DNA from: an uncultured Chitinophaga sp.
Lineage (GTDB): Bacteria > Bacteroidota > Bacteroidia > Bacteroidales > GCA-2748055
Length of the DNA stretch: 64,000 bases
Direction of reading: 5' to 3'
Assembly: GCA_964349045.1 (NCBI GenBank)
Contig: CAYGFI010000005.1
Location: 5,564 to 69,563, forward strand
The notes under the pieces were generated by a model, which saw only the letters and a program-made list of their open reading frames with translations, searched no databases and was not told the origin of the DNA. Made by a program: the position numbers and the translations under genes. Below are positions 27,168-62,131 of the stretch, in pieces (the first letter of the stretch is position 1; every line of letters starts with the position of its first letter).

Positions 27168-27343
27168 AGGTAGTAGTTTAGGATAATTAATTTAAAACTT
27201 ATTTTTATCAAAAATGACAGATTAAGCTAATAAATATTTTACCAGGATTTTACAAAATGAAAAAAATAAATGAACCTTTTGTTTCTATATTTTTTAAATT
27301 CTACAGTTGTATTGTCGAATGGAAGGCAATGGATAAATTCAAA

Positions 27344-33707: not shown

Positions 33708-33845
33708 CAAGGTTTCGCGCAAAATCGTACACGACACAATGTAAAATATAATCCATACCTTCTAATAACTTTATGTTTCCTGCGTCTTTGCGTGAAAAAG
33801 AACCGAAATATACCGAGATACTATCCTGAAAAAACGAGATTGAAA

Positions 33846-37051: not shown

Positions 37052-37070
37052 ATCTTTTATTATGAAAATG

Positions 37071-40397: not shown

Positions 40398-40430
40398 TCC
40401 TGGTTAATGTTTATTCAAAGTAAATTGATT

Positions 40431-41963: not shown

Positions 41964-41974
41964 TCTGCTAATAT

Positions 41975-43621: not shown

Positions 43622-43634
43622 ATTTTTACAAATC

Positions 43635-45155: not shown

Positions 45156-45271
45156 TTAATATATTTTTTAGCAGCCAGATGGAACAATTATTTTATAAAT
45201 TTCTTTCATAAAGTCGGTGTTCGAATAACATGTGGGTTTCATTTTTGCCATTCCTTAAAAGTTCACATTAA

Positions 45272-48200: not shown

Positions 48201-48502
48201 AAATCAATACTCATAGGTTGTGTCGGATCAGGTATCACCTCCTTAGTTTCATAACCGATAAGGCTGATTTTAAGGATGTTATTAATATTTTTCATTTCAA
48301 GAATGAAGTCTCCGTTCACATTACAAATAGTCCCGTTTATAATACGGTCCTCTTTATCATACTCAATAATGTTTGCACCAATAATACCAAGCTTGTTATT
48401 ATCGATAACCCTTCCCCTGATTATGACCTTTTGCTGTGCTATGGCTGTTACAAAACCAAATATTGCAATTATAAGCAGGATAGTTTTTTTGAATTCTTTC
48501 AT
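45272..48502 (-). CDS. SusC/RagA family TonB-dependent transporter
   Basis: Start taken at the internal ATG 48502 (MKEFKKTILLIIAIFGFVTAIAQQ), which avoids overlap with the upstream gene. Plug region is VIRGISSMGNNKPLIVVDGIP and the terminal residues are ...FTASIGF. Confidence 0.85.
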   Translation of the reverse strand: MKEFKKTILLIIAIFGFVTAIAQQKVIIRGRVIDNNKLGIIGANIIEYDKEDRIINGTICNVNGDFILEMKNINNILKISLIGYETKEVIPDPTQPMSIDLAETNFELEEVVIAVKAKSSHSLTNIDERDNASSSVKVDLLDMKEMGVSSASDALQGKVSGLDIISASGDPGSGAQIVIRGISSMGNNKPLIVVDGIPQFSVPGSFDLSSADAEDIGNLVNIALQDIKSIEVLKDAASTAVYGSKGADGVLIIETFKGRLGKVQFDYSYKTSINYQPPPIPMLNGDEYIMLQLEEWHNNYGVFKVPSEIAYDKDYVDFYNYSANTDWIGAITQNSVTNDHYFNISGGGQKTRYFTSLSYVDEGGTTINTSSKRFSTRVNLDYFLSRNLLFSVQFNYTNNRTDGNYIVYSRPQGMNIREMAYIKAPNMSIWEHDADGKLTGEYFNPINSYQGSGFNYFNPVAVANLGKNDVLSNSLNNTFILRYKILDKITFRETVSFQYTGNKANSFLPYNAIGLDWLEWEINRADENNGLSSAINTETQLAFDSPFKSKDHIFSGALTWVTIQSGWEYQYVQSLKSPSTDIQDPSVNPQIGWIGTGSQETRELGALMNLNYKFKDRYMLQTIARADASSSFGANNRWGVFKGVAVGWRFSDENFFKSLSFLGESMLRASWGTAGRQPGSPYARFATYGSPYPSSYMNLTAVVPTQIQLNNLKWESISSTDLGIEFNLFKDRMYLEGDLYKKTTSNLLFKDYPIPGSSGFDKLLLLNGGELENRGWELMFDIKLIRKKDFRWSVYFNSSQNINTFTRLPDNFNVEKSTSIGNGEYPRRVEQGQAMGSFFGFRYLGVYPTDADAMARDADGNILYDNNGSPIPMTYLGTYKFKGGDARYQDINHDGKIDLNDVVYIGDSNPDFIGGYGTSAKYKSWEVSCGFHYRLGFDIINGVAISTEGMNDKNNQSKAVLRRWRVQGQDEKAMLPRAYLYNPANNLGSDRYVEKGDYLRLLNVMIGYRLPQSICNKLNLRSLTLALSGRKLMTFTNYSGQDPEVSQDATDPFWIGVDNARTPPSRMVTFTASIGF

Positions 48503-48545
48503 TTCGTTCACAAATCTTAGTTTAATAATCAATTTATCGAACAAA

Positions 48546-50867
48546 CTATTGAGTATCCGATTCATTTACCAAAAGGACCTTGTCAATCTGGTGAATAACA
48601 GCGTTGGAAATGACATTGGGGAATACTTCCAGTCCCCCTACCCCCTCTGAAGTAACAAGTTTCCTTACCGTAATAATATTGGTATTGGGTGATTCAGGAA
48701 TAGCTATGTAATCTGAACCTGACAGACCCGGGATATTTATTTCATCAACACCGGGATTTATATATACCTTGGTGAAGATAGTTGTAAAGGGTGTGGATTT
48801 TTCATCAATCCTGGTAGTCTCATAATATTTTGCAGGCTTATTTCCGTCAGTAAAAATCATGTCTCCCTGTATAAAATGGAAAAGAAGAAATTGCTTAAGA
48901 TCCGGAACACTCATTGTATCTACCTGATATTCAGTTAAAGCTGCCACACTTGGTATAAATACGGTATAAAATTCATTGTCGGAAATGAATTTATAAGTGT
49001 AAAGTTTGTCGTTTGTCAAACCAGCTTTTTTAAGCAGATTGTGAAAATAAGGAAAGGAAGTTGAAATTTTCTGAAATAAATCAACAGATGCAAAATTGAA
49101 CCAGTTTGAAATATTATAGGTAATCCCGTTATCAGCATTTGTGCTTATTTGTTTGGGAAAAACATTTACTTGCTCTTCTCCGCTGTAACCTATAGTTGAA
49201 GGAGCCGTTCCGCTTACCTCACCTGTTTCGTTGTTAAAAATTAAAAAATTCCCGGCAAGATTTCGGATAAACTCTTTTTTCGCGATTCCATTTGGAATTT
49301 CTACACCTATATGATTAAGAATCAACCTACGTAGCTCATTTGTCGATAACGAAATTTCCTGAAACTGGTCCCCCGATGTCTGAAAAAGCGAAAACCGGTC
49401 ATTAATCGGATTATATATAAGGGAGGAATCAAACCGCAGGTTTAAATCCGATTCCGCATAAAGTAAATAATTATTAGATTCTTTTTTTAGTGCAGGCAAT
49501 AAGCCTGTTTTTTCAATGGCATACATAGCAATTGAATAACCCCGCTGAAGGTAAATAGGCCCGGTAATGCTCTTAAATGCCCGGGGAACTATCATTTTAT
49601 TTACGCCAATGAAACTGCAATTGCTTCCAAATTCCTTATGAATTATGGTCGAAGGATCAACATATATTATATCTTTCTCACCATTATAAAATCCTTTATA
49701 GAAATCAGAAGGATAAATTGCATTGTAAGACATTTGCGTATTTGCCATCATTCTTTTTATATGAAGAGGAGTCTCTTTTAATGACCCCCAATTATCGGGA
49801 CCGGCAATATATTCACTGATGAATGCATCAAATGCATCATTGGTAGGAGCTATCAACCCATGATGATAGCGGATAGAAACATTACCCGGTAATCCGACTG
49901 TCCCCAATGGAGCTTTTGTTTGCTCATTCGTAATGTTAAATGCCAGTTTTGGAAAGCTTATGTCAAAAAGGGAATCTACCGTATATCCAAGGTCTGCTCC
50001 TGGTTGTGCGATAGTTCTTTCCCGGTTATAAAGGAATTCCGGAAATATATCAACCAGGTCAAGGAACTTACTGTAAGAAATGTCATCATTCTTTGTGCTG
50101 AGAATCTGGTAAGCGTTTTTAAGTGGTTCAATCACCCTGTCAATTACATGGATAAACCCGTTTTCAGCAAAAATGTCACCGGTAATTATTTTCCCACTGA
50201 CAAAGTAAATATCATTCGGACTATCAAAAGGCCTTTCAAAATAGAAAGTAAAATCATTCGAGCTAAGATCGAAAATGTTAAAGTACTCATTGTAAAAAAC
50301 CGGTGCATATTTTCTGGAATCAGTTGCCTGTCGTCTGTACCAGTCAGTGAGAAGTGTGTCAACAATAGCAATCACCTTGTTTTCATTGACCTTAACCCCA
50401 TATTTCGGGTCCTTATCACGCAACAAAGTTTCCCTTTTAAAACCTTTGGGCTTGTCGTTATTTATGTCAGTTGAATCGATCCATCCATGCACATCCAGGG
50501 ATCTGAGCTGGAGTTTACTCCAGGGATTCTGCACAATATGAAATTTAACAATACGGTTTAATTCGTCAGGTGGAATATCTGTAACAGAGTTATATCCGGG
50601 ATGAGACTGCAAATATAGTGTAAAGGCATCATTGTCCGGGGCAAATACAGTATAACTCCCTGAAGTATTAATAATAGTGTCATAACCGGTTATTTCCAGG
50701 CACCGGGCAAACTGAGAAAGTTCAGGACGAGACTTAATCTGGATAAACAACTTTCCTGCGAGCCAGTCAGGACGGGCATATTTGTCAGAAAGTTCAAGGT
50801 CTTCTTTGCAACTGATAATGCTTGCAAACAACAATGCAAGAAACAATAATTTTTTGATTCGAATCAT
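48546..50867 (-). CDS. Multi-FAS1 (about four fasciclin domains) lipoprotein, first gene of the string
   Basis: 773 aa with lipobox ASIISCKED. Repeated FAS1 marks are YTVFAPDNDAFTLY, LIAPTNDAFDAF, YTVFIPSVAAL and NAVIHQIDKVLL. Confidence 0.65.
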   Translation of the reverse strand: MIRIKKLLFLALLFASIISCKEDLELSDKYARPDWLAGKLFIQIKSRPELSQFARCLEITGYDTIINTSGSYTVFAPDNDAFTLYLQSHPGYNSVTDIPPDELNRIVKFHIVQNPWSKLQLRSLDVHGWIDSTDINNDKPKGFKRETLLRDKDPKYGVKVNENKVIAIVDTLLTDWYRRQATDSRKYAPVFYNEYFNIFDLSSNDFTFYFERPFDSPNDIYFVSGKIITGDIFAENGFIHVIDRVIEPLKNAYQILSTKNDDISYSKFLDLVDIFPEFLYNRERTIAQPGADLGYTVDSLFDISFPKLAFNITNEQTKAPLGTVGLPGNVSIRYHHGLIAPTNDAFDAFISEYIAGPDNWGSLKETPLHIKRMMANTQMSYNAIYPSDFYKGFYNGEKDIIYVDPSTIIHKEFGSNCSFIGVNKMIVPRAFKSITGPIYLQRGYSIAMYAIEKTGLLPALKKESNNYLLYAESDLNLRFDSSLIYNPINDRFSLFQTSGDQFQEISLSTNELRRLILNHIGVEIPNGIAKKEFIRNLAGNFLIFNNETGEVSGTAPSTIGYSGEEQVNVFPKQISTNADNGITYNISNWFNFASVDLFQKISTSFPYFHNLLKKAGLTNDKLYTYKFISDNEFYTVFIPSVAALTEYQVDTMSVPDLKQFLLFHFIQGDMIFTDGNKPAKYYETTRIDEKSTPFTTIFTKVYINPGVDEINIPGLSGSDYIAIPESPNTNIITVRKLVTSEGVGGLEVFPNVISNAVIHQIDKVLLVNESDTQ

Positions 50868-51300
50868 TTTATTCGTTTCTAATAGTAGTTTGAGGTACGT
50901 TAAAAACAGAGCTTGTGGAGTTGTTTCAAAAGTACTAAATTTTGTTTAAATCCAAATCGATTGAAATATATAAATCTGCTTACCTATTAATTACTTTTTT
51001 AAATATTTAAGATATTTTAAAGTAGGACAAGTTATTATTTCATCACCAACAAAAAGTTCCTGTACTATTATATTCTTGTGTCATCAATATAGTAATGAAT
51101 AGCCAAAATAAGGAAACAATTAAATATGATAGTCCGAGCAGATTACCCAGATCATACATTATTTTAACATTTTTTTAACAACATTTATTTATTTCCATTT
51201 TGCTTTAAAAGGAATTCTTTGAGTAGTTAAAAATAAACTGTATTTATTTATTGTGAAATGAACAAAATGGACTATAATTTGCACAAAATGGATAAAGTAA
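50868..51300 (-). repeat. Left arm of a mirror-image paralogous upstream region (upstream of the fasciclin/SusCD string)
   Basis: The reverse complement is colinear with 52451-52910. The best block is 51123-51171 against 52599-52647, 49 nt with 3 mismatches. Confidence 0.8.
51256..51293 (-). promoter_or_regulatory. Candidate AraC-family operator: two direct repeats with 21-bp phasing
   Basis: The minus strand reads ATCCATTTTGTGCAAATTATAGTCCATTTTGTTCATTT. The unit TCCATTTTGT occurs at 51292-51283 and again at 51271-51262. Confidence 0.45.
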
Positions 51301-51541
51301 AGTGTGTTGGTCAGGAGATTCAAAATGCCAATTGAACGAAGCCAGGATCTCTCATTGCGGGAATACAAAATATATCAATAGTTAAGTCAAACTCACTGAT
51401 ATTGAAAACAATGTACGTAAAACATATTGAAATATTTCCTGGAAACCTAACACATCATTTTAACCTTTCCGGAAAAATATTAGCATTTTGCAATTTACCC
51501 TTTCAAAAACCTATCTTTGAGAATAATTACCCGATAAATCC

Positions 51542-52444
51542 ATGGAAGATTTCTTCAAATACCTTACTCCCGGTGAAGAAGATATTGGTTGGGGACTTTA
51601 CCTGAATGTTGTAGGTAAAACCATTATTCCGCCAGGACTGATTTATCCCAGTATCGATCACCCCAGCGGTTATTTTTTCACTTGGGACAAGGGACGGGTT
51701 CTTCATGAATACCAGATCGTATATATTTCAGAAGGCGATGGGATCTTTGAAGATGAAACCGGCGAATTCCCTATTAAAGCAGGATCGCTACTAATTCTGC
51801 AGCCTGGAAGATGGCATCGGTATAAACCGGACCCGGGTAAAGGATGGACAGAAAGTTATGTTGGATTTAATGGTCTTTCGGCAAATTTAATGTTTACCAA
51901 TCCTCAACTTACTCTTATAAAACCCGTTGTCCATATTGGTAACCGTGAGGAATTCATTGACACGTATTATAAAATATTCAGATTTGCACAAGCTGAAAAG
52001 CCTGGATTCCAACAGATTACTGCAGGTATGGTAATGAAACTCCTGGGATATCTTATTTCAATTGAAAAAAGACTTGATTTCTCGGAGAAAAGAATCGAGA
52101 AAATCATAGAAAAAGCATGTTTTCTCATAAGAGAAAATATTGAAAAGGAAATTGATTTTAAACAGTATGCAGATGAGAACTGTGTAGCATATTCCTATTT
52201 CAGAAGAATGTTTAAAATGTATACCGGATTACCCCCGGCTAAATATCATCTTGACCTTAAGATCATCAGGAGCCGTGAATTATTGCTTTCAACTGATAAA
52301 ATAATCAAGGAAATCTGCAATGAAGTTGGATTTGAATCAACTTATTATTTCAGCAGACTATTTAAAAAAAAAACAGGTATTTCTCCTTCCCTCTTCAGAA
52401 CTTCGGCCAATAATCAAAAAGGGCAGAAAAAAATTATTCGGTGA
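51542..52444 (+). CDS. AraC family transcriptional regulator (N-terminal cupin-like sensor, C-terminal double HTH)
   Basis: 300 aa. The C-terminus (YFRRMFKMYTGLPPAKYHLDLKI...ICNEVGFESTYYFSRLFKKKTGISPSLFR) is the AraC/XylS HTH signature. Confidence 0.85.
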   Translation: MEDFFKYLTPGEEDIGWGLYLNVVGKTIIPPGLIYPSIDHPSGYFFTWDKGRVLHEYQIVYISEGDGIFEDETGEFPIKAGSLLILQPGRWHRYKPDPGKGWTESYVGFNGLSANLMFTNPQLTLIKPVVHIGNREEFIDTYYKIFRFAQAEKPGFQQITAGMVMKLLGYLISIEKRLDFSEKRIEKIIEKACFLIRENIEKEIDFKQYADENCVAYSYFRRMFKMYTGLPPAKYHLDLKIIRSRELLLSTDKIIKEICNEVGFESTYYFSRLFKKKTGISPSLFRTSANNQKGQKKIIR

Positions 52445-52450
52445 TTTCCG

Positions 52451-52910
52451 TTATTTAGTCATTTTGTGCAAACTTTGGTTCACTTTGTTCATTTAACTTG
52501 ACCTTAACGTATCCTAATTTTACCTGTTCTAAGGATTACGTTAAGATGTAAATGAAAATAAATATATAAAAATCATTATCTGTATATATTCCCATAATAA
52601 TGTTAAAATAGTGTATGATCTGGGTAATCTGCTCGAACAATCATATTAAAATGTTTGTTTATTTTGGATAATCATTTAATATGTAATGGCATAAAAGAAT
52701 AAATACATTTTCACTTTTTGTTTGGTATGTAATAATTTCATATCCTTGCTTAAAATTTCTTTGATAATTGTAATTAATTGATTTGCAGTTTAAAATATAT
52801 TTATTAGGTGAACTAATAATTTCATAGCATGTTTTTTTATTTGGATTTTGTTTTTAGCTGTTTTAATATTGTTTATCCTTAAATATTTTACTAATCCTAA
52901 ACTGATAATT
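52451..52910 (+). repeat. Right arm of the mirror-image paralogous upstream region (upstream of the LTD/T9SS protein gene)
   Basis: Colinear with the reverse complement of 50868-51300. It also contains an arm-specific hairpin, CTTAACGTATCCT ... AGGATTACGTTAAG, at about 52503-52546. Confidence 0.8.
52458..52495 (+). promoter_or_regulatory. Candidate AraC-family operator: two direct repeats with 21-bp phasing
   Basis: GTCATTTTGT lies at 52458-52467 and TTCACTTTGT at 52479-52488, followed by TCATTT. The sequence is homologous to 51256-51293. Confidence 0.45.
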
Positions 52911-55900
52911 ATGAAGACAAAACTACTATTGATTGTTCTTCTTATGGTTGCCGGGATTCTGAATGCCCAGGATACCATAAGAACTCTTGTGATTACGGAG
53001 TACAGGGGTGATGATTCACGTCAAAACTTCGTTGAAATCAGCAATGTTGGTACAACAACATTAAACCTTGCTAATTTTCAGATTGGAACCGTTTCTCCCT
53101 GGAGTACTCCGATAGAAAGAGGCAATCTGCGAAAAGCATGGAATTTAATAGGGAATACACCCTGGCCATTTACAGTAGTGCTTCGGTTGCCGGAAAAAAA
53201 TCTTGCTCCCGGTAAATCTTTTACTATCGGTCCATTGTACGACTGGAACCCTGAAGCATTTAACAGGGGAGACCCAAGAGGCATCCGGGTCATGAACAAA
53301 AAGGAATGGTGGACCCTTGCAGACATTCAGGCCCATTTTCCTGAAAACCCGAAGCAGCCAGACCCTACAGATAGTGCAAATATCTGGCACCGTCTGATTG
53401 ATCAGTGGGGCGGCGCTTATGGTATATACCTCGCACAGTATCTTTCACCAACCGACTCTGTTGTAATTGATTTGGTGAATGTTTATGAATGGGATGCCGA
53501 TGGCACAAGAGATGAGAGTCCTCATGATGTGGCAGGTGTTACCCATGCTACAAGAACTGCTACACTTATTCGCAAGTTCAGCGTGAAGAAAGGGAATCTT
53601 GATTTTCTGAAAGCAGCCGGACTTGATTATACCGACTCCGAATGGATACCCATTCCCCATCTTACCGGCGGCTGGGAACCTCATCGGTCCTTGTTCTGGA
53701 CTGCTGGTAACCATGGAGATTATAATTTGGACGAAGCAACACTTACCTCAAATACTGTTGATATAAACTGGACCAACCATGTTCTTACGGTTCCCTGGGG
53801 TGTAAGGAGAGACGATTCACTTATGTACCAGTTTAACCGTAAACCCGGTTTAGCTTGGCATTTTGATTATGCCCCGTCATCTGTCGATTCTGCATTCTAT
53901 TCTCTCAGAACCGGTGATGCCATGACTATTTATGCCTGTGGAAATGATGTGGATATTATTAAATTTGATATTGTTGTTTCTCCTCCTACAGCTGGTGAAA
54001 ACAGGGTTGTACCTAAAAAGATGGGAAATTTACATGGATATTTCTCCCTTGGTCCACCCAGCTGGGTAGTAACTGATAAGGTTCCCGGCATGGATACCAT
54101 TCAGGAGATTCCCTTTGGAATCCGGTCGGATACCCTGCTCAAATATCTCGAAAAAGCTCCCGAAGCAAACTGGGAATTCGAATGGGTTGACGGTAATGTC
54201 AGGACAGATCTACAGACCGGTGATATCCTGAAAGTTACAGCCAAGAATGCAAGCGTAAAGAGATACTATATTAAGCCAAATAAAATCCAGAAAAGCCATA
54301 ATGCTAACCTGGCCTCTATCACCTGGCCTGATATTCCTGAATTCTATAAAGGTCTCTATGGGTGGGTTGGTGATACTATTCCAACTTTCGCGACCAGCAA
54401 AACCGAATACATTCTCCAGGTTCCCCTCGATGTAACTGGTATACCTGCTTTGGTTGGGAAAACACAGAATATCAATGCACAACTTGAGGTTGACAGGGCT
54501 AAAAATTTAACCGGATCTAATGCAGACAAAACGGTTACATTTACAGTTACGGCCCAGGATGATACCACTATAATGGTATACAAGGTTCAGCTCGAAAAAG
54601 AAAAAGACCTATCCAATATTCAACCCTGGGTGGGAAAACCATTTATTTCACAATTTGTCTGGATGAATGATTTCCGCAATACTTTTCTTGAAGTAGTAAA
54701 TCCGGGAACCGAACCTCTTGATTTAAGTAATTATATGATCGTTTCCGGGTATGCTGCCAATCCGGCTGACGCCATCAGACAAGCCGCAGGAACCGGTGAT
54801 TTTGCCGAAAGGTATAGAAAATATATCCCAGGCTATAAATGGGTACCGGAAGCTGATTGGGCAACAAAACCAGGCATCGCTCAACCGGATGTAAATATTG
54901 ATCCGATTGTTCAGGCTGGAGATGTCTTTGTTTTGGCTCAAATTTACTGGGATAGTCCGGATGGAAGCGCTCCTACTTTCATAAAGCCTCAGGTTGATCT
55001 TGATTTAGCGAATAACCCATGGGATGAACCATTAGCACAGTGGTCATCTCTTGAAATGTGGTTTGGAAAAGTCTATTTATTCGAAATCCTGAACGATTCT
55101 GTTAAAACAGGAAAAAAACCTGCAACAGATCCGAATGATTTTGAACTTCTTGACTGCTTTGCCGATAATGCCGGACAATGGAATGTTGGAGGTATTCCTG
55201 CAGGTCAAACCTTTGGTTATACCAGAAAGCCGGAAGTTTATCTAGGCAATCCTGTTATTGGAGGCTCATTTGGTACAACAGAAGAGAATAGTGAATGGGT
55301 AATGCTTAATGAAGCCCGGCTGCAGGCAAAAGGTTACCCCTGGCCAAACTGGAGAGCCTATACCTGTGAAGGTATTGGTTCTCACTTCATGAAGGCTTAT
55401 ACCGGCTATATGTCCATTGTTGGATCAAATGCCTACAAAGTTTCTGAAGGTTACACCAATGCAGAGACCATCAGAGGGATCGTAACCGGAACCACTGTAT
55501 CAGATTTTCTTGCTGCTTTATCAAAAGTAGATGAAGGTCAAACCCTGACAGTAAAAAGAGCTGGTGTTGCTGTTCTATCAACTTCTGCACTTGTAAATGG
55601 AGATGTTCTTGAAGTGGTTTCCGCTGACGCAGTTAATACAACCAAATACACTCTTGAAGTTACTGCCGGTGGTTTACCCGATAACGCGGTTCTTACTTCA
55701 ACTCAATATACAATTGCAATTACGGGTGCAACCGGAACAATATCAGGTTTTGATTATAGTGTACCCTTAAGGACAATTGTTGAAAATGTTGTAGTTCCTG
55801 ATGGTGCAACATTCAATGTTATAGACGGAAACAATGCATACGTGCCCCTTATGATCCTGAATTATGATACCATTTTGGTGGCTGTCCGGGTAAATTCCAA

Positions 55901-56735
55901 TACATATTTTGAAGTAATAGCTGAAAACGGAACTACCAAGATTGTTTACCAGCTGATACCAAACATGATGAACAGCGGTGCATTTGTAACCTCCAATGTT
56001 TTTACTGTAAACCATTCGGCTTCACTCATATCTGATGTTCCTGATGGTGCCGGAGTATATGGTTTTATGAAGTATATTATACCTGCTCCAGGTGCAACAG
56101 TTAAACTGATTGATAAACTTGGTTATGAAAGGACCATGGGTAATATCTATGTAGACGACCGGATTTTAGTTACTTCTGAAGATGGTCTGACAACCAAGAT
56201 ATATTATCTGAAGGTTTTACGTGAAATATCCAATTACCTTGCATATGTATTATCCGATATCTATGCTGTTGATCAGATAGGGTATACAATTACAGGTGAT
56301 TTCAGTGTTGCAACCACTGTAAGCAGCTTCCTCGCAAACCTTATCCCCGCTGAAGGAGCTACAATGAAGGTAACAAACGCTGCTGGTGTTCAACAAACCG
56401 GCAACATGGCGGTTGGTAATTTACTTGTTGTTTCTGCAGGTGATGGTATTACCACGGTAACCTATTCACTTGAAGTTGGAACAAGTGTACGCAATATCAA
56501 CGCTGGTTCAATAAATGTTTATCCAAACCCGAGTAACGGAATGATCTATGTCTCCGGCCTCGAAACAGGACACAGGGTAGCCGTTACCAATATGCTGGGT
56601 CAGAGATTGATTGACAGGGAAGTTAAACAGAACATCGAAATGTTCAACCTGGAAGGTCAGTCTGGCGGAGTTTATTTCATAACTGTTAATAACGGAAACC
56701 AGGTTGTAGGTCGCTACAAACTGATTCTGCAATAA
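52911..56735 (+). CDS. Large T9SS-secreted protein with two lamin-tail-domain-like modules, a cadherin-like beta-sandwich and repeated ~75-aa modules; C-terminal T9SS sorting domain
   Basis: Start taken at ATG 52911 (MKTKLLLIVLLMVAGILNAQ). LTD-like segments are LVITEYRGDDSRQNFVEISNVGTTTLNLANFQI and NTFLEVVNPGTEPLDLSNYMIV. The CTD is INVYPNPSNGMIYV...GGVYFITVNN...YKLILQ. Confidence 0.6.
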   Translation: MKTKLLLIVLLMVAGILNAQDTIRTLVITEYRGDDSRQNFVEISNVGTTTLNLANFQIGTVSPWSTPIERGNLRKAWNLIGNTPWPFTVVLRLPEKNLAPGKSFTIGPLYDWNPEAFNRGDPRGIRVMNKKEWWTLADIQAHFPENPKQPDPTDSANIWHRLIDQWGGAYGIYLAQYLSPTDSVVIDLVNVYEWDADGTRDESPHDVAGVTHATRTATLIRKFSVKKGNLDFLKAAGLDYTDSEWIPIPHLTGGWEPHRSLFWTAGNHGDYNLDEATLTSNTVDINWTNHVLTVPWGVRRDDSLMYQFNRKPGLAWHFDYAPSSVDSAFYSLRTGDAMTIYACGNDVDIIKFDIVVSPPTAGENRVVPKKMGNLHGYFSLGPPSWVVTDKVPGMDTIQEIPFGIRSDTLLKYLEKAPEANWEFEWVDGNVRTDLQTGDILKVTAKNASVKRYYIKPNKIQKSHNANLASITWPDIPEFYKGLYGWVGDTIPTFATSKTEYILQVPLDVTGIPALVGKTQNINAQLEVDRAKNLTGSNADKTVTFTVTAQDDTTIMVYKVQLEKEKDLSNIQPWVGKPFISQFVWMNDFRNTFLEVVNPGTEPLDLSNYMIVSGYAANPADAIRQAAGTGDFAERYRKYIPGYKWVPEADWATKPGIAQPDVNIDPIVQAGDVFVLAQIYWDSPDGSAPTFIKPQVDLDLANNPWDEPLAQWSSLEMWFGKVYLFEILNDSVKTGKKPATDPNDFELLDCFADNAGQWNVGGIPAGQTFGYTRKPEVYLGNPVIGGSFGTTEENSEWVMLNEARLQAKGYPWPNWRAYTCEGIGSHFMKAYTGYMSIVGSNAYKVSEGYTNAETIRGIVTGTTVSDFLAALSKVDEGQTLTVKRAGVAVLSTSALVNGDVLEVVSADAVNTTKYTLEVTAGGLPDNAVLTSTQYTIAITGATGTISGFDYSVPLRTIVENVVVPDGATFNVIDGNNAYVPLMILNYDTILVAVRVNSNTYFEVIAENGTTKIVYQLIPNMMNSGAFVTSNVFTVNHSASLISDVPDGAGVYGFMKYIIPAPGATVKLIDKLGYERTMGNIYVDDRILVTSEDGLTTKIYYLKVLREISNYLAYVLSDIYAVDQIGYTITGDFSVATTVSSFLANLIPAEGATMKVTNAAGVQQTGNMAVGNLLVVSAGDGITTVTYSLEVGTSVRNINAGSINVYPNPSNGMIYVSGLETGHRVAVTNMLGQRLIDREVKQNIEMFNLEGQSGGVYFITVNNGNQVVGRYKLILQ

Positions 56736-56752
56736 CATTTTTCTAAACTAAA

Positions 56753-56792
56753 AAAGAGGCTGTCTCTGCATGGAGACGGCCTCTTTCTTTTT
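56753..56792 (+). terminator. Rho-independent terminator after the LTD/T9SS protein gene
   Basis: Stem AAGAGGCTGTCTC / GAGACGGCCTCTT with one mismatch and loop TGCATG, followed by TCTTTTT. Confidence 0.6.
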
Positions 56793-56898
56793 GAATGCTT
56801 TGCAGATTTTGTTTTTACAATTCACCTGCACATCAATACCTACCCGAAAATATATCCCTGCAGGAATTGGTAAATAAAAATTTAAAACAGATATAAAA

Positions 56899-59001
56899 AT
56901 GGGATCGGTCATTTCACGAACATTTCGATTTTCTCTTTTATTCCTGATCCTGGTCAGTGCCATTCTTATGGTAACCTCAGGTCAGAATATGCCTGTCCAA
57001 AAAACAGAAGGAGAAATAATTCTGACACAAAACTCTCCATTGGTTGGCGCCATTCGATGGGATGGATGGGTTGGAAACAAAGGATCCTGGCAAATAGGTC
57101 CAATAGTGGAACGCACACTGGGGCCTTCTAAATTTCACTACAGGGCGCCCTTTTTTAGCATTGTAACCGGCAAGGACTCCATTTCAATTGACGGCACAAC
57201 CCAGGAAATCATGGATAAGGAGATTGTCTTTGCAACGGAGGCAGGTATTGATTACTGGGCATACTGCTGGTATCCCGATGGATGTGGATTGGAATTAGCC
57301 CGAAAATTGCACCAGACCAGTATACTTGCCAACGATGTAAAGTGGTGTGTAATTTTAGGAACCTTCGAGGTAAATGTATTAAATAATTATGGTGCCTCTC
57401 TGGTTAATGATTTTGCCCGTGAAAACTATCAGAAGGTATTAGGTGGCCGCCCATTAATTTACCTGTATAGCAGCGATTTAACCAGGGCAGGCCTGGATAA
57501 GTTAAGAGCAATGACTATTGCAAAAAATTTAAAAACACCTTATGTTGTAGTAATGGCATGGGATGCAGCTTCAGCGGCAGACTATTGTCAGGTCATCGGT
57601 GCCGATGCAATAAGCAGCTATGCTGCCCTGGGAAATAATAATCGTCCTTTTACTGAAGTAATTCCCCCCCAAAGTAAGGCAAATTGGGAAAAATTTGCTG
57701 CAAAAAAAGAAGTTGTTCCCTGGGTTTGCACAGGATGGAATGCTAAACCCCGTATGGAAAGCGAAAATCCATGGAGTTCTTACTATTCGGATGCAACAAA
57801 CTGCCAGGATGCGACCGCAAATGATATAAAAGATTTTTTGCTATCAGCAATTGATTGGACAGTTTCTCACAGGAGTAAGGTTGTTGCAAATACCCTGATC
57901 ATGTATGCCTGGAATGAACACGATGAAGGCTATGGTGCAATTTGTCCTACACTTGGAACAGACGGGATGCCAGATACCGAAAGACTCGATTCGGTTAGAG
58001 TGGCACTTCAGGGAAGAATGAAAGATACCATCATAATCAGGTCGTTTCAACTGAATGTTGTGGTAAAAGATGTTGAATTGAATAGTCCAATAAGTGATGC
58101 AAGGGTAATGATTAATAAGGATACCGTGATTTCTGATCAGGAAGGAATCTCTTATTACAACAGTGTACCTGAAAATTTTGTTTTGAGTATTGAAAATGAC
58201 AAATATCTGCCTGTTACCAGAAGATCTATCTCTGTAAATAGTGATACAACTCTCATCTTTTATCTTATTCAACGCGGTTTTAATGTATCCCTCACCCTGA
58301 TGGATAATAAAACTCATGAACCATTCTGGGGTGCCCGTGTAACTGTTGATTCAAATACTCAGGTAACAGATGGATCCGGCCAGGTATTATTTTCTCTGAG
58401 GAGTGGCACCTATGAGTATACCATAAATAAAATTTCCTATCAGGTTGAAACCGGAAATATCTCTATTACTTCAGATACCAGTATAATCTTCTACCTGACT
58501 CAAACCCATGCTGAGGCCAAATTCCGGTTGTATGACGGCCTGACGCCCCTGAATAACGCAATCATAAAGGTAAATAGTGATTCTCTTTTGACAAACGCTA
58601 TTGGAATAGCGCTGTTTAAACTACTCCCGCTGAATTATTTATATTCGTATTCTATCATAAAAGAAGGTTATAATAGTAATTATGGAGAGTTTTTTCTGAG
58701 TAAAGATACATTGATTGACATTTCTGCGGAAAGAAATAACCTGGGTTCTGAACTTTTATTAAACCCACACAATATGAAATTATGGCCCAATCCGGCGTCC
58801 GGATTCCTTCACTGCTCCTTTCCTACAAGGTTTTTAAACAGTACTTTCATAATTACTGATATGGCTGGAAATGAAATTTATTCAGTTGTATTGAATGAGA
58901 CAGAATTTAGTTTAAGTCTGAGGGATTTCCATTCGGGCACGTATTTCCTTCGGGTAATCTCAGATTATAATTATACAGGTATTCTTATTATCAGTAAATG
59001 A
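56899..59001 (+). CDS. T9SS-secreted putative glycoside hydrolase: GH99-like-superfamily catalytic domain, three CarboxypepD_reg-like repeats and a T9SS C-terminal sorting domain
   Basis: 700 aa. Residues ~45-370 are a close paralog of the 62132-63211 product. Three ~75-aa repeats each end in ...SDT.LIFYL. The CTD is LWPNPASGFLHC...SGTYFLRVIS. Confidence 0.55.
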   Translation: MGSVISRTFRFSLLFLILVSAILMVTSGQNMPVQKTEGEIILTQNSPLVGAIRWDGWVGNKGSWQIGPIVERTLGPSKFHYRAPFFSIVTGKDSISIDGTTQEIMDKEIVFATEAGIDYWAYCWYPDGCGLELARKLHQTSILANDVKWCVILGTFEVNVLNNYGASLVNDFARENYQKVLGGRPLIYLYSSDLTRAGLDKLRAMTIAKNLKTPYVVVMAWDAASAADYCQVIGADAISSYAALGNNNRPFTEVIPPQSKANWEKFAAKKEVVPWVCTGWNAKPRMESENPWSSYYSDATNCQDATANDIKDFLLSAIDWTVSHRSKVVANTLIMYAWNEHDEGYGAICPTLGTDGMPDTERLDSVRVALQGRMKDTIIIRSFQLNVVVKDVELNSPISDARVMINKDTVISDQEGISYYNSVPENFVLSIENDKYLPVTRRSISVNSDTTLIFYLIQRGFNVSLTLMDNKTHEPFWGARVTVDSNTQVTDGSGQVLFSLRSGTYEYTINKISYQVETGNISITSDTSIIFYLTQTHAEAKFRLYDGLTPLNNAIIKVNSDSLLTNAIGIALFKLLPLNYLYSYSIIKEGYNSNYGEFFLSKDTLIDISAERNNLGSELLLNPHNMKLWPNPASGFLHCSFPTRFLNSTFIITDMAGNEIYSVVLNETEFSLSLRDFHSGTYFLRVISDYNYTGILIISK

Positions 59002-59238
59002 TAAGTTTCCAAATTAACTGGAATGATTGATCAAAAATTTTTGTTCGACGAAAATTAGACATAATACCAAAGCTCTATCATTTTTATTATAGGAATTACC
59101 TTATTCCAGAGAAAGAAAAGCCCTCAAACCCGGGGTAGTGCTTGTCACGCCTTGCGGGAGGTTGGGGAGGGGAATTAAGAATAATTTCTATAAAAAAGTC
59201 GCTCTTGAGGTACAAAAACAATTAAATTAATCCAAATT

Positions 59239-59270
59239 GTTCATTTAGTGTAAACTAAAGTTCATTTTGT
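59239..59270 (+). promoter_or_regulatory. Candidate AraC-family operator upstream of the sulfatase gene
   Basis: GTTCATTTAGT lies at 59239-59249 and GTTCATTTTGT at 59260-59270. The spacing is 21 bp and the site is ~150 bp upstream of ATG 59416. The unit is the same as in the two arms flanking the AraC gene. Confidence 0.4.
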
Positions 59271-59415
59271 CTATTTTACAATGAATTAAATTACCATAAA
59301 TTTACTTTTGCCAGGGATAAATTTCAATTTGAGAAGTTCATGACTTACATTTCTTTTAGCAAAAGGATCAACCATAAAACTCAGAATAGCCCAAATTTCA
59401 CCAATCCTAAATCTG

Positions 59416-60816
59416 ATGATGATTAAATCTTGCTTAAATCTAAATCGAAGTACATCAGCTTTAATCCTGTTCTCAGGGCTTTCATTATCAGGATGCGTCA
59501 AAGAGGATCCGTTAAAACCCAATTTTTTGATCATCCTTACAGATGATTTAACCTACCGTGCCCTGGGCTATAATAATGAACTGGTAAAAACACCTAATCT
59601 TGATAAGCTTGCCCGCCAGGGTATCATTTTTGACCGCGCTTATATTTCCACACCAGTATGTGCTGCAAGCAGGGCAAGTATGTTAACCGGACTTTATCCG
59701 CAGACAAATGGCACTGTGGCCTTAGATACAAAGTCATTTATCAAAAATATTGTTCAGGAAAAAAGGTTCAAAACATTACCCCAGGTTCTGAATGAAGCTG
59801 GTTATAAAAGTTATTTTAGCGGGAAGTCTCATTTAGGAGATCCCAAAGATTACGGATTTCATTTCGGAAAAGAAACTCCTGATTATGATGATAAAACAGC
59901 ATTTGAGGATGTATACGGATTTATCGATTCACCAGAATTCGGACAAAAACCATTTTTACTATGGCTTGCTGTAAGGCAACCCCATGTGCCACTTAAGCCG
60001 GAAGAGAAATGGCTTAAACTTTATTCAGAAACAAATTTCCCCATAGAAAAGAATTTTTTGAAGGAACCTCCTTCAGAAAGTTTTTATAACCAGGGCCTTC
60101 CTGGTGAAAATTTCTACCGGGATTCTGATTACACTGATAATTATAAAAATTTACCGGCCGGCCCTCCACGACCTGTTGAAGTCATCCGTGAATTTACCAA
60201 AGCGTACTACGCTACAATAAGTCATCTCGACTTTCAGATTGGTGAATTAATTGATCAGCTTCAATCCAAAAACCTGTTCGAAAATACAGTATTGATTTTT
60301 TTATCCGATAATGGGTATTTTTTAGGGAACCATGGTCTAGGCAACAAATTAACCATGCACGAAGAGTCAGTCCGTGTTCCGATGTTTATTTATTGGGATA
60401 AACTCCCTAAAACCAATATTCACTCGGATGCACTTGTCTCGAGCGTGGATGTATTTCCTACCATTCTTGACCTGGCTGGAATAGATATACCTGATTATCT
60501 TCAGGGGATTTCATTAAAGCCCTTGCTTGCAAATCCCTCGATGCAACTGAATGAATATGTTGCCAGTGAAAGTGTTGGAGTAGGAGGAGAATTGGGTTTA
60601 GGGCACAGAATGATCGTGAAGGATAAATGGAAATATATTCTGTCGGATACGGGAGACGAGGCACTTTTTTATTTAGAGGATGATCTTTATGAAATTGACA
60701 ACCTGATAGATGACATACAACACCAGGGGGAGGTCTTTAAATTAAAAGCTTTTTTGATAGATTGGAAAAACAAAACCGGAGACAATAAAGATATTCCTGT
60801 CGGAATGCCCAAATAA
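59416..60816 (+). CDS. Sulfatase (formylglycine-dependent, Cys-type) lipoprotein
   Basis: 466 aa with lipobox LSLSGCVKED. It has LIILTDDL and the active-site signature PVCAASRASMLTG (C-x-A-x-R variant). Confidence 0.8.
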   Translation: MMIKSCLNLNRSTSALILFSGLSLSGCVKEDPLKPNFLIILTDDLTYRALGYNNELVKTPNLDKLARQGIIFDRAYISTPVCAASRASMLTGLYPQTNGTVALDTKSFIKNIVQEKRFKTLPQVLNEAGYKSYFSGKSHLGDPKDYGFHFGKETPDYDDKTAFEDVYGFIDSPEFGQKPFLLWLAVRQPHVPLKPEEKWLKLYSETNFPIEKNFLKEPPSESFYNQGLPGENFYRDSDYTDNYKNLPAGPPRPVEVIREFTKAYYATISHLDFQIGELIDQLQSKNLFENTVLIFLSDNGYFLGNHGLGNKLTMHEESVRVPMFIYWDKLPKTNIHSDALVSSVDVFPTILDLAGIDIPDYLQGISLKPLLANPSMQLNEYVASESVGVGGELGLGHRMIVKDKWKYILSDTGDEALFYLEDDLYEIDNLIDDIQHQGEVFKLKAFLIDWKNKTGDNKDIPVGMPK

Positions 60817-60884
60817 CAAAAAAGCGTACAATATATTTCAATATTATTGTATGCTTTAATATTTTTACATTAAATACTTACATT

Positions 60885-62114
60885 ATGAAATCGCAACTAT
60901 TGACTTTCGCATTTTTAACCCTTCTTGTATCCTGCAAACCTGGCAAAAAAGTCAATCAGGAGCCGGATAAAATCACTGTTGCCTCTTACTATTTTCCCAA
61001 CTACCATATCAGGGGGGGCGACCATCTCCCTATCAGCAAACAAGCAGTTCTTGATAATAAGTCAGAGTGGGAATTAGTAAAAAATGCAAAGCCACGCTTT
61101 GAGGGCCATCAGCAGCCAAAAGTTCCGGCATGGGGTTACACCGATGAAAAAGATCCTGCTGTAATGGCAATGAAAATTGAAGCTGCTTCCGAATATGGAG
61201 TCGATGTTTTTATTTTTGACTGGTACAACTACAACGGCCAGCCATTTTTAAACCAGTGTCTTGACGAGGGATTCCTGAAAGCTGAAAATACAGACAAGTT
61301 GAAGTTTGCCCTGATGTGGGCCAACCATGACTGGAAAGATCTTTTCCCCTGTAATGAAGGCAACCTTGGTGAACTGCCGGTAATGTATGAAGGAATGGTT
61401 GCAGCTGATGCTTTTGATAAGCTTGGAAATGAAATTATCCGCGACTATTTTACAAAACCAAACTACTGGTTAATTGATGGTAAACCCTATTTTTCCATTT
61501 ATGACGTAACAGAATTTATTGAAGGATTTGGAAGTATGGAGGCTGCAAAAGAAGCAATGGAAAACATGAACGAAAAAGCTATTGCAGCAGGGCTTAAGGG
61601 GATTCACTGGAACCTTGTTGCCTGGGGCAATCCAATATTACCCGGACAAAAAGTACCTTCAAGTATTCCGGAGCTCATTACAAAACTCGGTTTTAATTCT
61701 GCTACTTCTTATGTATGGATTCATCATGTTCAGTTACCTGAGGTGCAAAACGATTATAATACTGCACGGGAAAAATATTTTACCCATTGGGATAAAGCAA
61801 AAGAAGAATATGGAGTACCCTACTTCCCGAATGTTTCCATGGGATGGGATTCTTCTCCCCGTACAAACCAGGAAATGGGATGGAAACATACATCGGGATA
61901 TCCTTACACAGGGATACTGGTAAATAATACACCTGAAAACTTCAAAGAAGCACTACAACTGACAAAAGCCAGATTGCTTTCAGACCCTGATGGTCCGCGC
62001 ATATTTAACATCAACTGCTGGAATGAATGGACCGAGGGAAGCTACCTTGAACCAGATACTATTAACGGTATGGCATATTTAGAATCTATTAAGGAAGTAT
62101 TTAAAAGCAATTGA
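60885..62114 (+). CDS. GH99-like domain (WbsX-family) protein, lipoprotein
   Basis: 409 aa with lipobox LLVSCKPG. Family marks are VASYYFPNYH...SEWELVKNAKPRFEGHQQPKVP...GVDVFIFDWYNY...INCWNEWTEGSYLEPD. Confidence 0.6.
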   Translation: MKSQLLTFAFLTLLVSCKPGKKVNQEPDKITVASYYFPNYHIRGGDHLPISKQAVLDNKSEWELVKNAKPRFEGHQQPKVPAWGYTDEKDPAVMAMKIEAASEYGVDVFIFDWYNYNGQPFLNQCLDEGFLKAENTDKLKFALMWANHDWKDLFPCNEGNLGELPVMYEGMVAADAFDKLGNEIIRDYFTKPNYWLIDGKPYFSIYDVTEFIEGFGSMEAAKEAMENMNEKAIAAGLKGIHWNLVAWGNPILPGQKVPSSIPELITKLGFNSATSYVWIHHVQLPEVQNDYNTAREKYFTHWDKAKEEYGVPYFPNVSMGWDSSPRTNQEMGWKHTSGYPYTGILVNNTPENFKEALQLTKARLLSDPDGPRIFNINCWNEWTEGSYLEPDTINGMAYLESIKEVFKSN

Positions 62115-62131
62115 TTATTAATCAGATCAAT

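What the first reader, a model, noticed from the sequence alone, without database searches (positions are those of the whole stretch)
51256..59270. Direct repeat GTYCAYTTTGT with exact 21-bp phasing in three upstream regions: candidate operator defining an AraC regulon
Three sites each carry two copies of the same ~11-nt unit, spaced exactly 21 bp (two helical turns).

| Site | Unit 1 | Unit 2 | Location |
|---|---|---|---|
| Left arm (minus strand) | TCCATTTTGTG | TCCATTTTGTT | 51292-51262 |
| Right arm | GTCATTTTGTG | TTCACTTTGTT | 52458-52488 |
| Upstream of sulfatase | GTTCATTTAGT | GTTCATTTTGT | 59239-59270 |

Tandem direct half-sites spaced about 21 bp are the classic binding geometry of AraC/XylS-family dimers, and an AraC-family gene sits between the first two sites. 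This would link three units into one regulon: the fasciclin/SusCD string, the LTD/T9SS protein gene, and the sulfatase with the GH99-like genes.
Basis: partly seen in the sequence, partly recalled or inferred. Interest (0 to 1): 0.6.

Follow-up and report, generated by a model that had tools for sequence, protein, structure and literature searches.

The report
AraC operator boxes at three promoters
Three promoters around an AraC-type sugar-regulator gene carry the same two-part binding site at a fixed distance from the promoter elements, which is a well-supported but conventional regulon prediction.

Summary
Three sites each hold two CAYTTWGT cores exactly 21 bp apart. The three sites are 51256-51294, 52456-52494 and 59238-59276.

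- I built a 39-nt matrix only from conserved boxes next to AraC relatives in other genomes. On the 64-kb window it hits exactly these three places (20.1, 16.6 and 15.8 bits). The next hit scores 11.4 bits and lies in coding DNA. Shuffled windows give 0.055 such hits.
- Every box is followed, after exactly 20 nt, by a Bacteroidota -7 promoter motif, TAnnTTT[G/A]. This holds for all 3 window boxes and for 44 of 51 boxes in relatives.
- The proximal half-site therefore abuts a weak -33 element, as at AraC/XylS/RhaS-activated promoters.
- All three boxes recur upstream of orthologous fasciclin, LTD and sulfatase genes in related contigs. The half-sites and the -7 motif are conserved there while the spacers have diverged.

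- The left and right sites belong to one ~350-bp inverted duplication, so they are not independent.
- The regulator belongs to a Bacteroidota clade whose more distant members control rhamnose genes. A 21-bp direct-repeat motif was already predicted for that kind of regulator.

Verdict: a new member of a known kind. Binding and induction are untested.

The parts
51256..51294 (-). Left box, 39 nt. Read towards the fasciclin gene it is TATCCATTTTGTGCAAATTATAGTCCATTTTGTTCATTT. It holds two half-sites 21 bp apart, and the proximal one ends in ATTT, a weak -33.
   Evidence: (16.6 bits). Orthologous boxes lie upstream of fasciclin orthologs in L062 and L067.
51228..51235 (-). Putative -7 element TATTTTTA of the leftward promoter, 20 nt after the left box.
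35123..50867 (-). Leftward target string: fasciclin (48546-50867), SusC (45272-48565), SusD (43635-45155), fasciclin (41975-43714), unknown (40431-42008), SusC-like (37071-40397), SusD-like (35123-37177). That it is one operon is inferred from gene spacing only.
51542..52444 (+). AraC-family regulator, 300 aa: cupin AraC_binding domain plus two HTH motifs. Proposed binder of the boxes.
51512..51519 (+). TATCTTTG, a perfect -7 consensus 22 nt before the AraC start codon. Likely the regulator's own promoter.
   Evidence: Conserved in L062.
52456..52494 (+). Right box, TAGTCATTTTGTGCAAACTTTGGTTCACTTTGTTCATTT, starting 12 nt after the AraC stop codon.
   Evidence: (15.8 bits). Conserved in L062.
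52515..52522 (+). Putative -7 element TAATTTTA of the rightward promoter.
   Evidence: Identical in L062.
52911..59001 (+). Rightward targets: LTD/T9SS protein (the likely true start is ATG 52911, at the signal peptide MKTKLLL) and a CarboxypepD_reg/T9SS protein (56899-59001).
59238..59276 (+). Sulfatase-upstream box, TGTTCATTTAGTGTAAACTAAAGTTCATTTTGTCTATTT.
   Evidence: (20.1 bits). Conserved upstream of the sulfatase ortholog in L066.
59297..59304 (+). Putative -7 element TAAATTTA of the sulfatase promoter.
   Evidence: Identical in L066.
59416..63211 (+). Third target unit: sulfatase (59416-60816) and two WbsX/GH99-like genes (60885-62114 and 62111-63211).
50966..51174 (-). Leader block shared with 52596-52798 (74% over 212 nt; 94-nt core at 83%). 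It is part of the inverted duplication. Its function is unknown.
52596..52798 (+). Right copy of the shared leader block.

Best explanation
The three boxes are operators for the AraC-family regulator encoded at 51542-52444. Each box has two direct-repeat half-sites of about 16-17 nt, 21 bp (two helical turns) apart. Read towards the target gene, the consensus in this clade is TCATTTTGTGCAAA-N5-GTYCAYTTTGTTCATT. The proximal half-site ends in ATTT/ATTG, the -33 element of a Bacteroidota sigma-A promoter. A -7 motif, TAnnTTT(A/G), follows after exactly 20 nt. If the -7 motif spans about -11 to -4, the box occupies about -70 to -32.

**Proposed mechanism (inferred, not shown).** A regulator dimer binds the two half-sites on one face of the DNA. 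When its cupin domain holds a sugar effector, it activates these weak-(-33) promoters by contacting RNA polymerase, as class II AraC/XylS/RhaS activators do. This would switch on three outward-facing units together:
- the fasciclin/SusCD string to the left
- the LTD and T9SS protein genes to the right
- the sulfatase plus WbsX/GH99-like genes further right

The effector is probably L-rhamnose or a related sugar released from a rhamnose-containing sulfated glycan. That is a weak inference from the contexts of relatives.

**Shown:** the sequence architecture, its statistical specificity, its co-occurrence with the regulator family, and its conservation at orthologous targets.
**Inferred:** binding, the direction of regulation (activation), the effector and the operon extents.
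For: 1. The regulator has the full AraC architecture. Both recognition helices are more than 90% conserved across the clade: YSYFR.MFK..TG and S..YFSR.FK.K.G.
2. The next best hit scores 11.4 bits and lies in the ppk coding region. In 200 dinucleotide shuffles, 0.055 hits per window reach 15.8 bits.
3. A box lies within 600 bp of the AraC relative in 41 of 54 loci, and in 25 of the 38 loci not used for training. Box density is 0.77 per kb near the gene and 0.019 per kb further away.
4. The -7 motif lies exactly 20 nt after the box in all 3 window sites and in 44 of 51 sites in relatives. Its background frequency is 0.00076 per position.
5. Phylogenetic footprints: the half-sites and the -7 motif are conserved while the spacers have diverged.
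   - Right box: L062, whose AraC is 87% identical.
   - Left box: upstream of fasciclin orthologs in L062 and L067.
   - Sulfatase box: L066, whose sulfatase is 75% identical and whose 12-kb contig carries no AraC gene.
6. In more distant relatives the genes downstream of boxes are RhaT, RhaM, RhaA, a GH106 rhamnosidase and SusC-like genes, which is a coherent sugar regulon.
7. Literature:
   - Bacteroides AraC-type RhaR is a positive regulator (PMC2707267).
   - HTCS regulators, which carry an AraC-type HTH, average 21 bp between tandem sites (PMC3878776).
   - The Bacteroides promoter consensus is -33 TTTG and -7 TAnnTTTG (PMC7366714).
Against: - There are no binding, transcription-start or expression data.
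- The window boxes score only 16-20 bits against 30-50 for most relatives, because CAAT is replaced by AAAT and the inner bases differ.
- The left and right sites share ancestry by duplication, so within the window only two events are independent.
- 13 of 54 relatives show no box within 600 bp at this threshold.
- The left and right promoters would give unusually long leaders of about 355-380 nt, so further control layers may exist.
- The syntenic contig of the 84% relative could not be read because no DNA was available.
- Orthology to the characterised BT3768 RhaR was not tested.
Confidence: 0.8

Rival explanations
1. The boxes are real operators but belong to a different regulator: another AraC paralog, an HTCS, or a repressor. 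The neighbouring AraC gene would then be a bystander, or the AraC protein would repress rather than activate.
For: - HTCS regulators with AraC-type HTH domains also have predicted 21-bp direct repeats (PMC3878776).
- L066 keeps the sulfatase box with no AraC gene on its 12-kb contig.
- The direction of regulation is inferred from geometry only.
Against: - Boxes are 41-fold enriched next to members of this one AraC clade across 54 loci.
- The recognition helices are conserved together with the box core.
- A position of -70 to -32, upstream of and abutting the -33 element, is an activator position, and Bacteroides RhaR is a positive regulator (PMC2707267).
- No HTCS gene lies among the genes flanking the boxes, 35123-63211.
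Confidence: 0.1
2. The similarity is only shared ancestry. One promoter segment was copied three times, and no dedicated regulator site is under selection.
For: - The left and right sites sit in a ~350-bp inverted duplication.
- The 20-nt spacers of the left and sulfatase sites are about 65% alike.
Against: - The sulfatase site shares only the box and the -7 motif with the two arms, not the flanks.
- In orthologous contigs the half-sites and the -7 motif stay fixed while the spacers and flanks diverge.
- A matrix from unrelated genomes finds these sites.
Confidence: 0.05
3. The two units are simply the -33 and -7 elements of ordinary Bacteroidota promoters, or tandem promoters, because TCATTTTG resembles TAnnTTTG.
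For: - TCATTTTG matches 7 of 8 positions of the -7 consensus.
- A lone TTCATTTTGT lies 85 nt upstream of the SusC gene that starts at 27167.
Against: - The TTTG-to-TTTG distance is 21, whereas elements centred at -33 and -7 would be about 26 apart (PMC7366714).
- A separate TAnnTTT[G/A] lies at a fixed +20 from the box.
- The matrix does not hit any of the many other promoters expected in the window.
Confidence: 0.03
4. The inverted repeats that flank the AraC gene are the ends of a mobile element or an invertible DNA switch.
For: Long inverted arms, 72-83% identical, bracket a single gene.
Against: - No recombinase or transposase ORF lies in or beside the segment.
- The arms are diverged, 350 bp long, and carry outward promoters.
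- Inversion would not change which genes those promoters drive.
- In L062 and L067 the left box lies in a short intergenic region of about 270 nt, and in L062 both leaders lack the shared leader block.
Confidence: 0.02

Closest known systems
Bacteroides RhaR (BT3768) rhamnose regulon and its predicted operator (Rodionova et al. 2013, PMC3870299; Ravcheev et al. 2013, PMC3878776; Patel et al., cited in PMC2707267)
   Same: - It is an AraC-family positive regulator in Bacteroidota.
[quoted passage not shown]
- Relatives of the window protein (44-63% identity) have boxes in front of RhaT, RhaM, RhaA and GH106 genes.
   Different: - The window regulator sits in a polysaccharide-utilisation locus with no rhamnose catabolic genes in 64 kb.
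- Its boxes are a sequence variant: AAAT replaces CAAT, and TTTGCACAAAATG replaces TTTGCACTTTTTG.
E. coli AraC at araI1-I2, and XylS (Pm), RhaS and MelR class II activation (my own knowledge)
   Same: - The N-terminal cupin sensor plus C-terminal double HTH matches AraC over nearly its full length (NF007860, E = 2.8e-27).
- There are two direct-repeat half-sites 21 bp apart.
- The proximal half-site abuts or overlaps the -35-equivalent element of a weak promoter.
   Different: - The promoter type differs: Bacteroidota sigma-A, with -33 TTG and -7 TAnnTTTG.
- The score is far below the AraC equivalog cut-off (95 against 208 bits).
- No distal O2-type looping site was looked for or found.
- The half-site sequence is unrelated to araI.
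Predicted operators of Bacteroides hybrid two-component systems (PMC3878776)
   Same: - The DNA-binding domain is an AraC-type HTH.
- Direct repeats average 21 bp between tandem sites, upstream of PUL operons.
   Different: The window regulator is a 300-aa cytoplasmic one-component protein with a cupin sensor. It has no periplasmic sensor, kinase or receiver domain.
CgrA (ZGAL_3159), the AraC-family regulator of the carrageenan regulon in Zobellia galactanivorans (PMC5698469)
   Same: - It is a one-component AraC-family positive regulator of a sulfated-polysaccharide utilisation regulon in Bacteroidota.
- That regulon includes susCD-like genes and sulfatases, and a monosaccharide is the suggested effector.
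   Different: - No sequence relationship was tested.
- None of the passages I read in that paper gives an operator.

Membership tests
AraC/XylS-family activator with a direct-repeat operator | The regulator has a C-terminal double helix-turn-helix of AraC type and an N-terminal ligand-binding/dimerisation domain. | tested here: met
   PF12833 (2.9e-18), PF00165 and PF02311 AraC_binding (4.7e-12). NF007860 AraC covers residues 47-293. PDB AraC DNA-binding domain 2k9s, E = 3e-11.
AraC/XylS-family activator with a direct-repeat operator | Two direct-repeat half-sites lie about 21 bp apart, centre to centre. | tested here: met
   Spacing is exactly 21 in all three window sites and in the family consensus.
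AraC/XylS-family activator with a direct-repeat operator | The promoter-proximal half-site abuts or overlaps the -35-equivalent element. | tested here: met
   The box ends in ATTG/ATTT, and a -7 motif follows after exactly 20 nt in 3 of 3 window sites and 44 of 51 sites in relatives. This rests on sequence only; no transcription start was mapped.
AraC/XylS-family activator with a direct-repeat operator | The operator co-occurs with the regulator across genomes. | tested here: met
   41 of 54 loci have a box within 600 bp of the gene, a 41-fold density enrichment.
AraC/XylS-family activator with a direct-repeat operator | The protein binds the site specifically, and transcription responds to an effector. 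| not testable with these tools
   Needs EMSA or footprinting and expression data.
Bacteroidota RhaR-type rhamnose regulon | The regulator is orthologous to B. thetaiotaomicron BT3768. | not tested
   The BT3768 sequence was not obtainable with the tools. Source names for the homologs say only 'AraC family'.
Bacteroidota RhaR-type rhamnose regulon | Boxes precede rhamnose transport or catabolism genes. | tested here: not met
   Met in relatives at 44-63% identity: RhaT, RhaM, RhaA, GH106. Not met in the window, where the targets are fasciclin/SusCD, LTD/T9SS and sulfatase/WbsX-like genes and no rha genes occur in the 17.7-63.2 kb I annotated.
Bacteroidota RhaR-type rhamnose regulon | [quoted passage not shown] | tested here: met
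   The published description is in PMC3870299.
Hybrid two-component system (HTCS) operator | The regulator carries a periplasmic sensor, a histidine kinase and a receiver domain in addition to the AraC HTH. | tested here: not met
   The protein is 300 aa and has only cupin plus HTH domains.
Invertible promoter or mobile element bounded by inverted repeats | A recombinase or transposase is associated, and the repeats bound a promoter or an element with target-site duplications. | tested here: not met
   ORFs in 50700-53000 show only the AraC gene and non-conserved short ORFs. The neighbouring genes have no recombinase domains. Population-level inversion could not be tested.
Plain sigma-ABfr promoter (-33 TTTG / -7 TAnnTTTG) | The two repeated units stand at the -33/-7 spacing of about 26 nt, centre to centre. 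| tested here: not met
   The units are 21 nt apart, and a distinct -7 motif lies 20 nt beyond the box. The consensus is from PMC7366714.

The most novel reading that the evidence does not exclude
A rhamnose-type (RhaR-like) one-component AraC regulator has been recruited from monosaccharide catabolism to control a whole surface glycan-capture system. That system comprises fasciclin-led SusCD transporters, T9SS-secreted LTD proteins and a sulfatase/GH99-like module for a sulfated rhamnose-containing polysaccharide. The recruitment would have happened by copying one promoter-leader cassette in inverted orientation on both sides of the regulator gene. The shared 212-nt leader block would be a second, RNA-level control element common to the two copies.
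Probability: 0.25. Interest if true: 0.45.

Novelty: new member of a known kind. Interest (0 to 1): 0.3.

Why it matters
The result gives a concrete, testable regulon model for an uncultured Bacteroidales PUL.
- It names the regulator and defines a 39-nt operator.
- It predicts three promoters, each with a transcription start predicted to within a few nucleotides.
- It links genes of unknown role (fasciclin-domain lipoproteins, an LTD/T9SS protein, WbsX/GH99-like enzymes) to a sulfatase in one response.

The family-wide composite (two half-sites, the -33 element, N20, then the -7 motif) could serve as a search model. It could be used to assign regulon members, and possibly a rhamnose-related substrate, across Bacteroidota metagenomes. 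It does not change what is known about how AraC-type regulators work.

Tried and rejected
- **Strict core search in relatives.** The relatives carry a sequence variant, read on the other strand. A matrix solved this.
- **Lag analysis of whole loci.** It was swamped by codon periodicity. Restricted to 160 nt upstream of the AraC relatives, it gave only a weak peak at lag 21.
- **Synteny.** No window gene other than AraC is conserved beside the AraC relatives from the genome collection, so orthologous targets had to be reached through protein look-ups.
- **The syntenic contig of the 84% relative, and two sulfatase contigs.** No DNA was available for them.
- **L063 and L070.** These sulfatase homologs lie mid-operon and have no box.
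- **Rfam on 50-60 kb.** No match.
- **Small ORFs in the duplicated leaders.** They are not conserved between the two copies.
- **RNA structure of the shared leader block.** A hairpin is predicted but has no covariation.
- **Sigma-70 promoter and terminator scan.** Uninformative, at the shuffle level.
- **Supplements of the two regulon papers.** They hold no RhaR site sequences for a direct comparison.
- **My first gapped pattern.** It used the wrong spacer length and found nothing.

Full report
**Observation.**
The three phased pairs exist as described.
- Left, minus strand: cores at 51282-51292 and 51261-51271.
- Right, plus strand: cores at 52458-52468 and 52479-52489.
- Sulfatase upstream, plus strand: cores at 59239-59249 and 59260-59270.

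Each pair has a start-to-start distance of exactly 21. The core CAYTTWGT occurs 13 times on both strands of the 64-kb window. Six of those form the three pairs, and no other two cores lie within 60 nt of each other. With 38 same-strand pairs, about 6e-4 pairs at spacing 21 are expected by chance (my arithmetic). TYCAYTTTGT alone gives 6 matches against 1.53 expected.

**Left and right are not independent.**
The AraC gene (51542-52444) is bracketed by an inverted duplication of about 350 bp, roughly 50966-51296 against 52454-52800. Its blocks are 72-83% complementary (alignment). The two leaders match at 74% over 212 nt. The sulfatase-upstream site shares only the box and a short downstream motif with the two arms, not the flanks. 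Within the window there are therefore two independent occurrences, not three.

**Genes.**
- 51542-52444 encodes a 300-aa AraC-type regulator with a cupin AraC_binding domain and a double HTH. It matches the E. coli AraC model over residues 47-293, below the equivalog cut-off.
- To the left, on the minus strand: fasciclin, SusC, SusD, fasciclin, an unknown gene, SusC-like, SusD-like.
- To the right: an LTD/T9SS protein whose real start is probably ATG 52911, a CarboxypepD_reg/T9SS protein, then a sulfatase and two WbsX/GH99-like genes.
- The window comes from an 88-kb metagenome contig, ENA ERZ27247837.

**Comparative test.**
Scans of the genome and metagenome collections with the regulator returned 60 loci with relatives at 44-78% identity, plus one weak 33% partial match. 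None shares the neighbouring PUL genes.

Their upstream regions, however, hold a conserved 39-nt box with two units 21 bp apart: CAATnCAnAnnnTGnnnnnTnnTTTnCACTnTTTGAnnC. A matrix built only from 16 such boxes was scanned over the window. Three hits reached 12 bits, at 51256 (+, 16.6 bits), 52494 (-, 15.8) and 59276 (-, 20.1). The next best hit scores 11.4 bits and lies inside a coding region, then 5.9. In 200 dinucleotide-preserving shuffles, 0.055 hits per window reach 15.8 bits.

Across 54 loci, 41 have a box within 600 bp of the AraC relative, including 25 of the 38 loci not used for training. Box density is 0.77 per kb near the gene and 0.019 per kb elsewhere.

**Promoter architecture.**
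Exactly 20 nt later comes TAnnTTT[G/A]. This holds for all three window boxes (TATTTTTA, TAATTTTA, TAAATTTA) and for 44 of 51 boxes in non-redundant relatives. The motif's background frequency is 0.00076 per position. TAnnTTTG at -7 and TTTG at about -33 are the Bacteroides sigma-ABfr consensus (PMC7366714).

The proximal half-site therefore contains the -33 element. The box spans roughly -70 to -32 if the -7 motif covers -11 to -4 (inference). This is the position of class II AraC/XylS-type activator sites (my own knowledge). The window promoters have a weakened -33 (TTT) and end their -7 motif in A, as expected of activator-dependent promoters.

The two units cannot themselves be a -33/-7 pair, because they are 21 nt apart rather than about 26.

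**Footprints at orthologous targets.**

| Contig | Relative | What is conserved |
|---|---|---|
| L062 | AraC 87% identical | Right box right after the AraC stop: TAGTCATTTTGTGTAAACAATAGTCCACTTTGTTCATTT, N20, TAATTTTA. The spacers differ from the window. |
| L062 | same contig | A left-type box 20 nt before TAAATTTG, pointing at a fasciclin ortholog. |
| L067 | AraC 80% identical | TACTCATTTTGTGCAAACTATTGTTCATTTTGTTCATTG, N20, TACTTTTG, pointing at a fasciclin ortholog. |
| L066 | sulfatase 75% identical, different neighbours, no AraC on the contig | TGTTCATTTTGTGCAAACTTAAGTCCATTTTGTCTATTT, N20, TAAATTTA upstream of the sulfatase. The spacer has diverged. |

Over these seven sites, the columns conserved in at least six are tT..tCAtTTtGTG.AAac....Gt.CA.tTTGT..ATT, then 20 unconserved columns, then tA..TTt.

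**What kind of regulator.**
In relatives at 44-63% identity, the genes downstream of boxes are RhaT, RhaM, RhaA, a GH106 rhamnosidase and SusC-like genes. At 72-78% they are GH43-like, isomerase-like and SusC-like genes, with a GH106 gene nearby. Both recognition helices are almost invariant across the clade.

This is the rhamnose-regulator type of Bacteroidota. The Bacteroides AraC-type RhaR is a positive regulator (PMC2707267). [quoted passage not shown] HTCS regulators with the same HTH type average 21 bp between tandem sites (PMC3878776). I could not test orthology to BT3768, and I could not compare with the published site sequences.

Homologs of the window sulfatase lie among GH78/GH106 rhamnosidases and WbsX-like genes in L063 and in the P0129 contig. 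This hints weakly that the substrate is a sulfated, rhamnose-containing glycan and that the effector is rhamnose-related.

**Mechanism, committed.**
A dimer of the 51542-52444 protein binds the two half-sites of each box. In the presence of its sugar effector it activates three outward promoters, with predicted starts a few nt beyond 51228 (minus strand), 52522 and 59304. These drive the fasciclin/SusCD string, the LTD/T9SS genes and the sulfatase/WbsX-like genes. The regulator's own gene has a separate consensus -7 motif, TATCTTTG at 51512-51519, conserved in L062.
- Shown: the architecture, its specificity, its co-occurrence with the regulator family, and its conservation.
- Inferred: binding, activation, the effector and the operon extents.

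**Rivals.**
- A different binder, or repression, cannot be excluded without experiments. It is disfavoured by the clade-specific co-occurrence and the upstream position of the boxes.
- Pure paralogy is contradicted by the footprints.
- A plain promoter reading fails on spacing.
- A mobile or invertible element lacks any recombinase.

**Novelty.**
The geometry, the regulator family and even the 21-bp motif class for Bacteroides AraC-type regulators are already published. AraC-family positive control of a sulfated-glycan regulon in Bacteroidota has a precedent in CgrA (PMC5698469). New here are this clade's operator sequence, its fixed N20 link to the -7 motif, and its assignment to this particular PUL. 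That makes it a new member of a known kind, of modest interest.

Noticed in passing
window 50966-51296 and 52454-52800: The whole promoter-plus-leader module is duplicated in inverted orientation on both sides of the AraC gene. The blocks are 72-83% identical, and the two promoters face outwards.
   Followed up: partly
window 50966-51174 and 52596-52798 (core 51094-51187 / 52583-52676): A 212-nt block is shared by the two long leaders. It is absent from the orthologous leaders in L062, where only the last 74-91 nt before the start codons match. It has no Rfam match. A hairpin, GTATGAT...ATCATAT, is predicted without covariation. Its function is unknown.
   Followed up: partly
window 50868-51227 and 52523-52910: The predicted 5' leaders of the fasciclin and LTD genes are unusually long, about 355 and 380 nt. 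The sulfatase leader is about 105 nt.
   Followed up: no
L063 1-21380; the P0129 contig (no DNA); L068 1-2645: Homologs of the window sulfatase (66-76% identical) and WbsX/GH99-like genes cluster with GH78 and GH106 rhamnosidases and further sulfatases. A 78% relative of the AraC gene also sits near a GH106 gene. This suggests a sulfated rhamnose-containing substrate.
   Followed up: partly
L004 about 9920-9975; also L005, L020, L037, L038 upstream of the AraC start: A GC-rich palindromic, REP-like element (GACCACCCCGTCGGGGTGG...CCACCCCGACGGGGTGGTC) is inserted between the box and the regulator's start codon in several relatives.
   Followed up: no
window 59118-59175: A GC-rich stretch (cccggggtagtgcttgtcacgccttgcgggaggttggggagggg) lies in otherwise AT-rich intergenic DNA, between the end of the T9SS gene and the sulfatase box. 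No T-run follows it.
   Followed up: no
window 48546-50867 and 41975-43714: Two fasciclin-domain proteins each precede a SusC/SusD pair in one long minus-strand string. An N-terminus nearly identical to that of the first (MIRIKKLLF...) lies divergent from the AraC relatives in L062 and L067.
   Followed up: partly
window 32598-35066: A GH26 gene and a GlcNAc-2-epimerase-family gene, typical of mannan use, lie next to the left string on the plus strand. No box precedes them. CBM35-GH26-T9SS genes occur in the syntenic P0003 contig and in L066.
   Followed up: no
L007, L009, L010, L015, L030, L041-L044: A subgroup of AraC relatives at about 61-63% identity has no matrix-detectable box within 600 bp. 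It shows a different conserved upstream segment, ...ATCTATTTGTGCTGAATTGATTATATTGTC....
   Followed up: no
window 27252-27261 (-) and 35999-36008 (+): These are single, unpaired copies of TTCATTTTGT. The first lies 85 nt upstream of the SusC gene that starts at 27167 and looks like an ordinary -7-type promoter element rather than an operator.
   Followed up: partly
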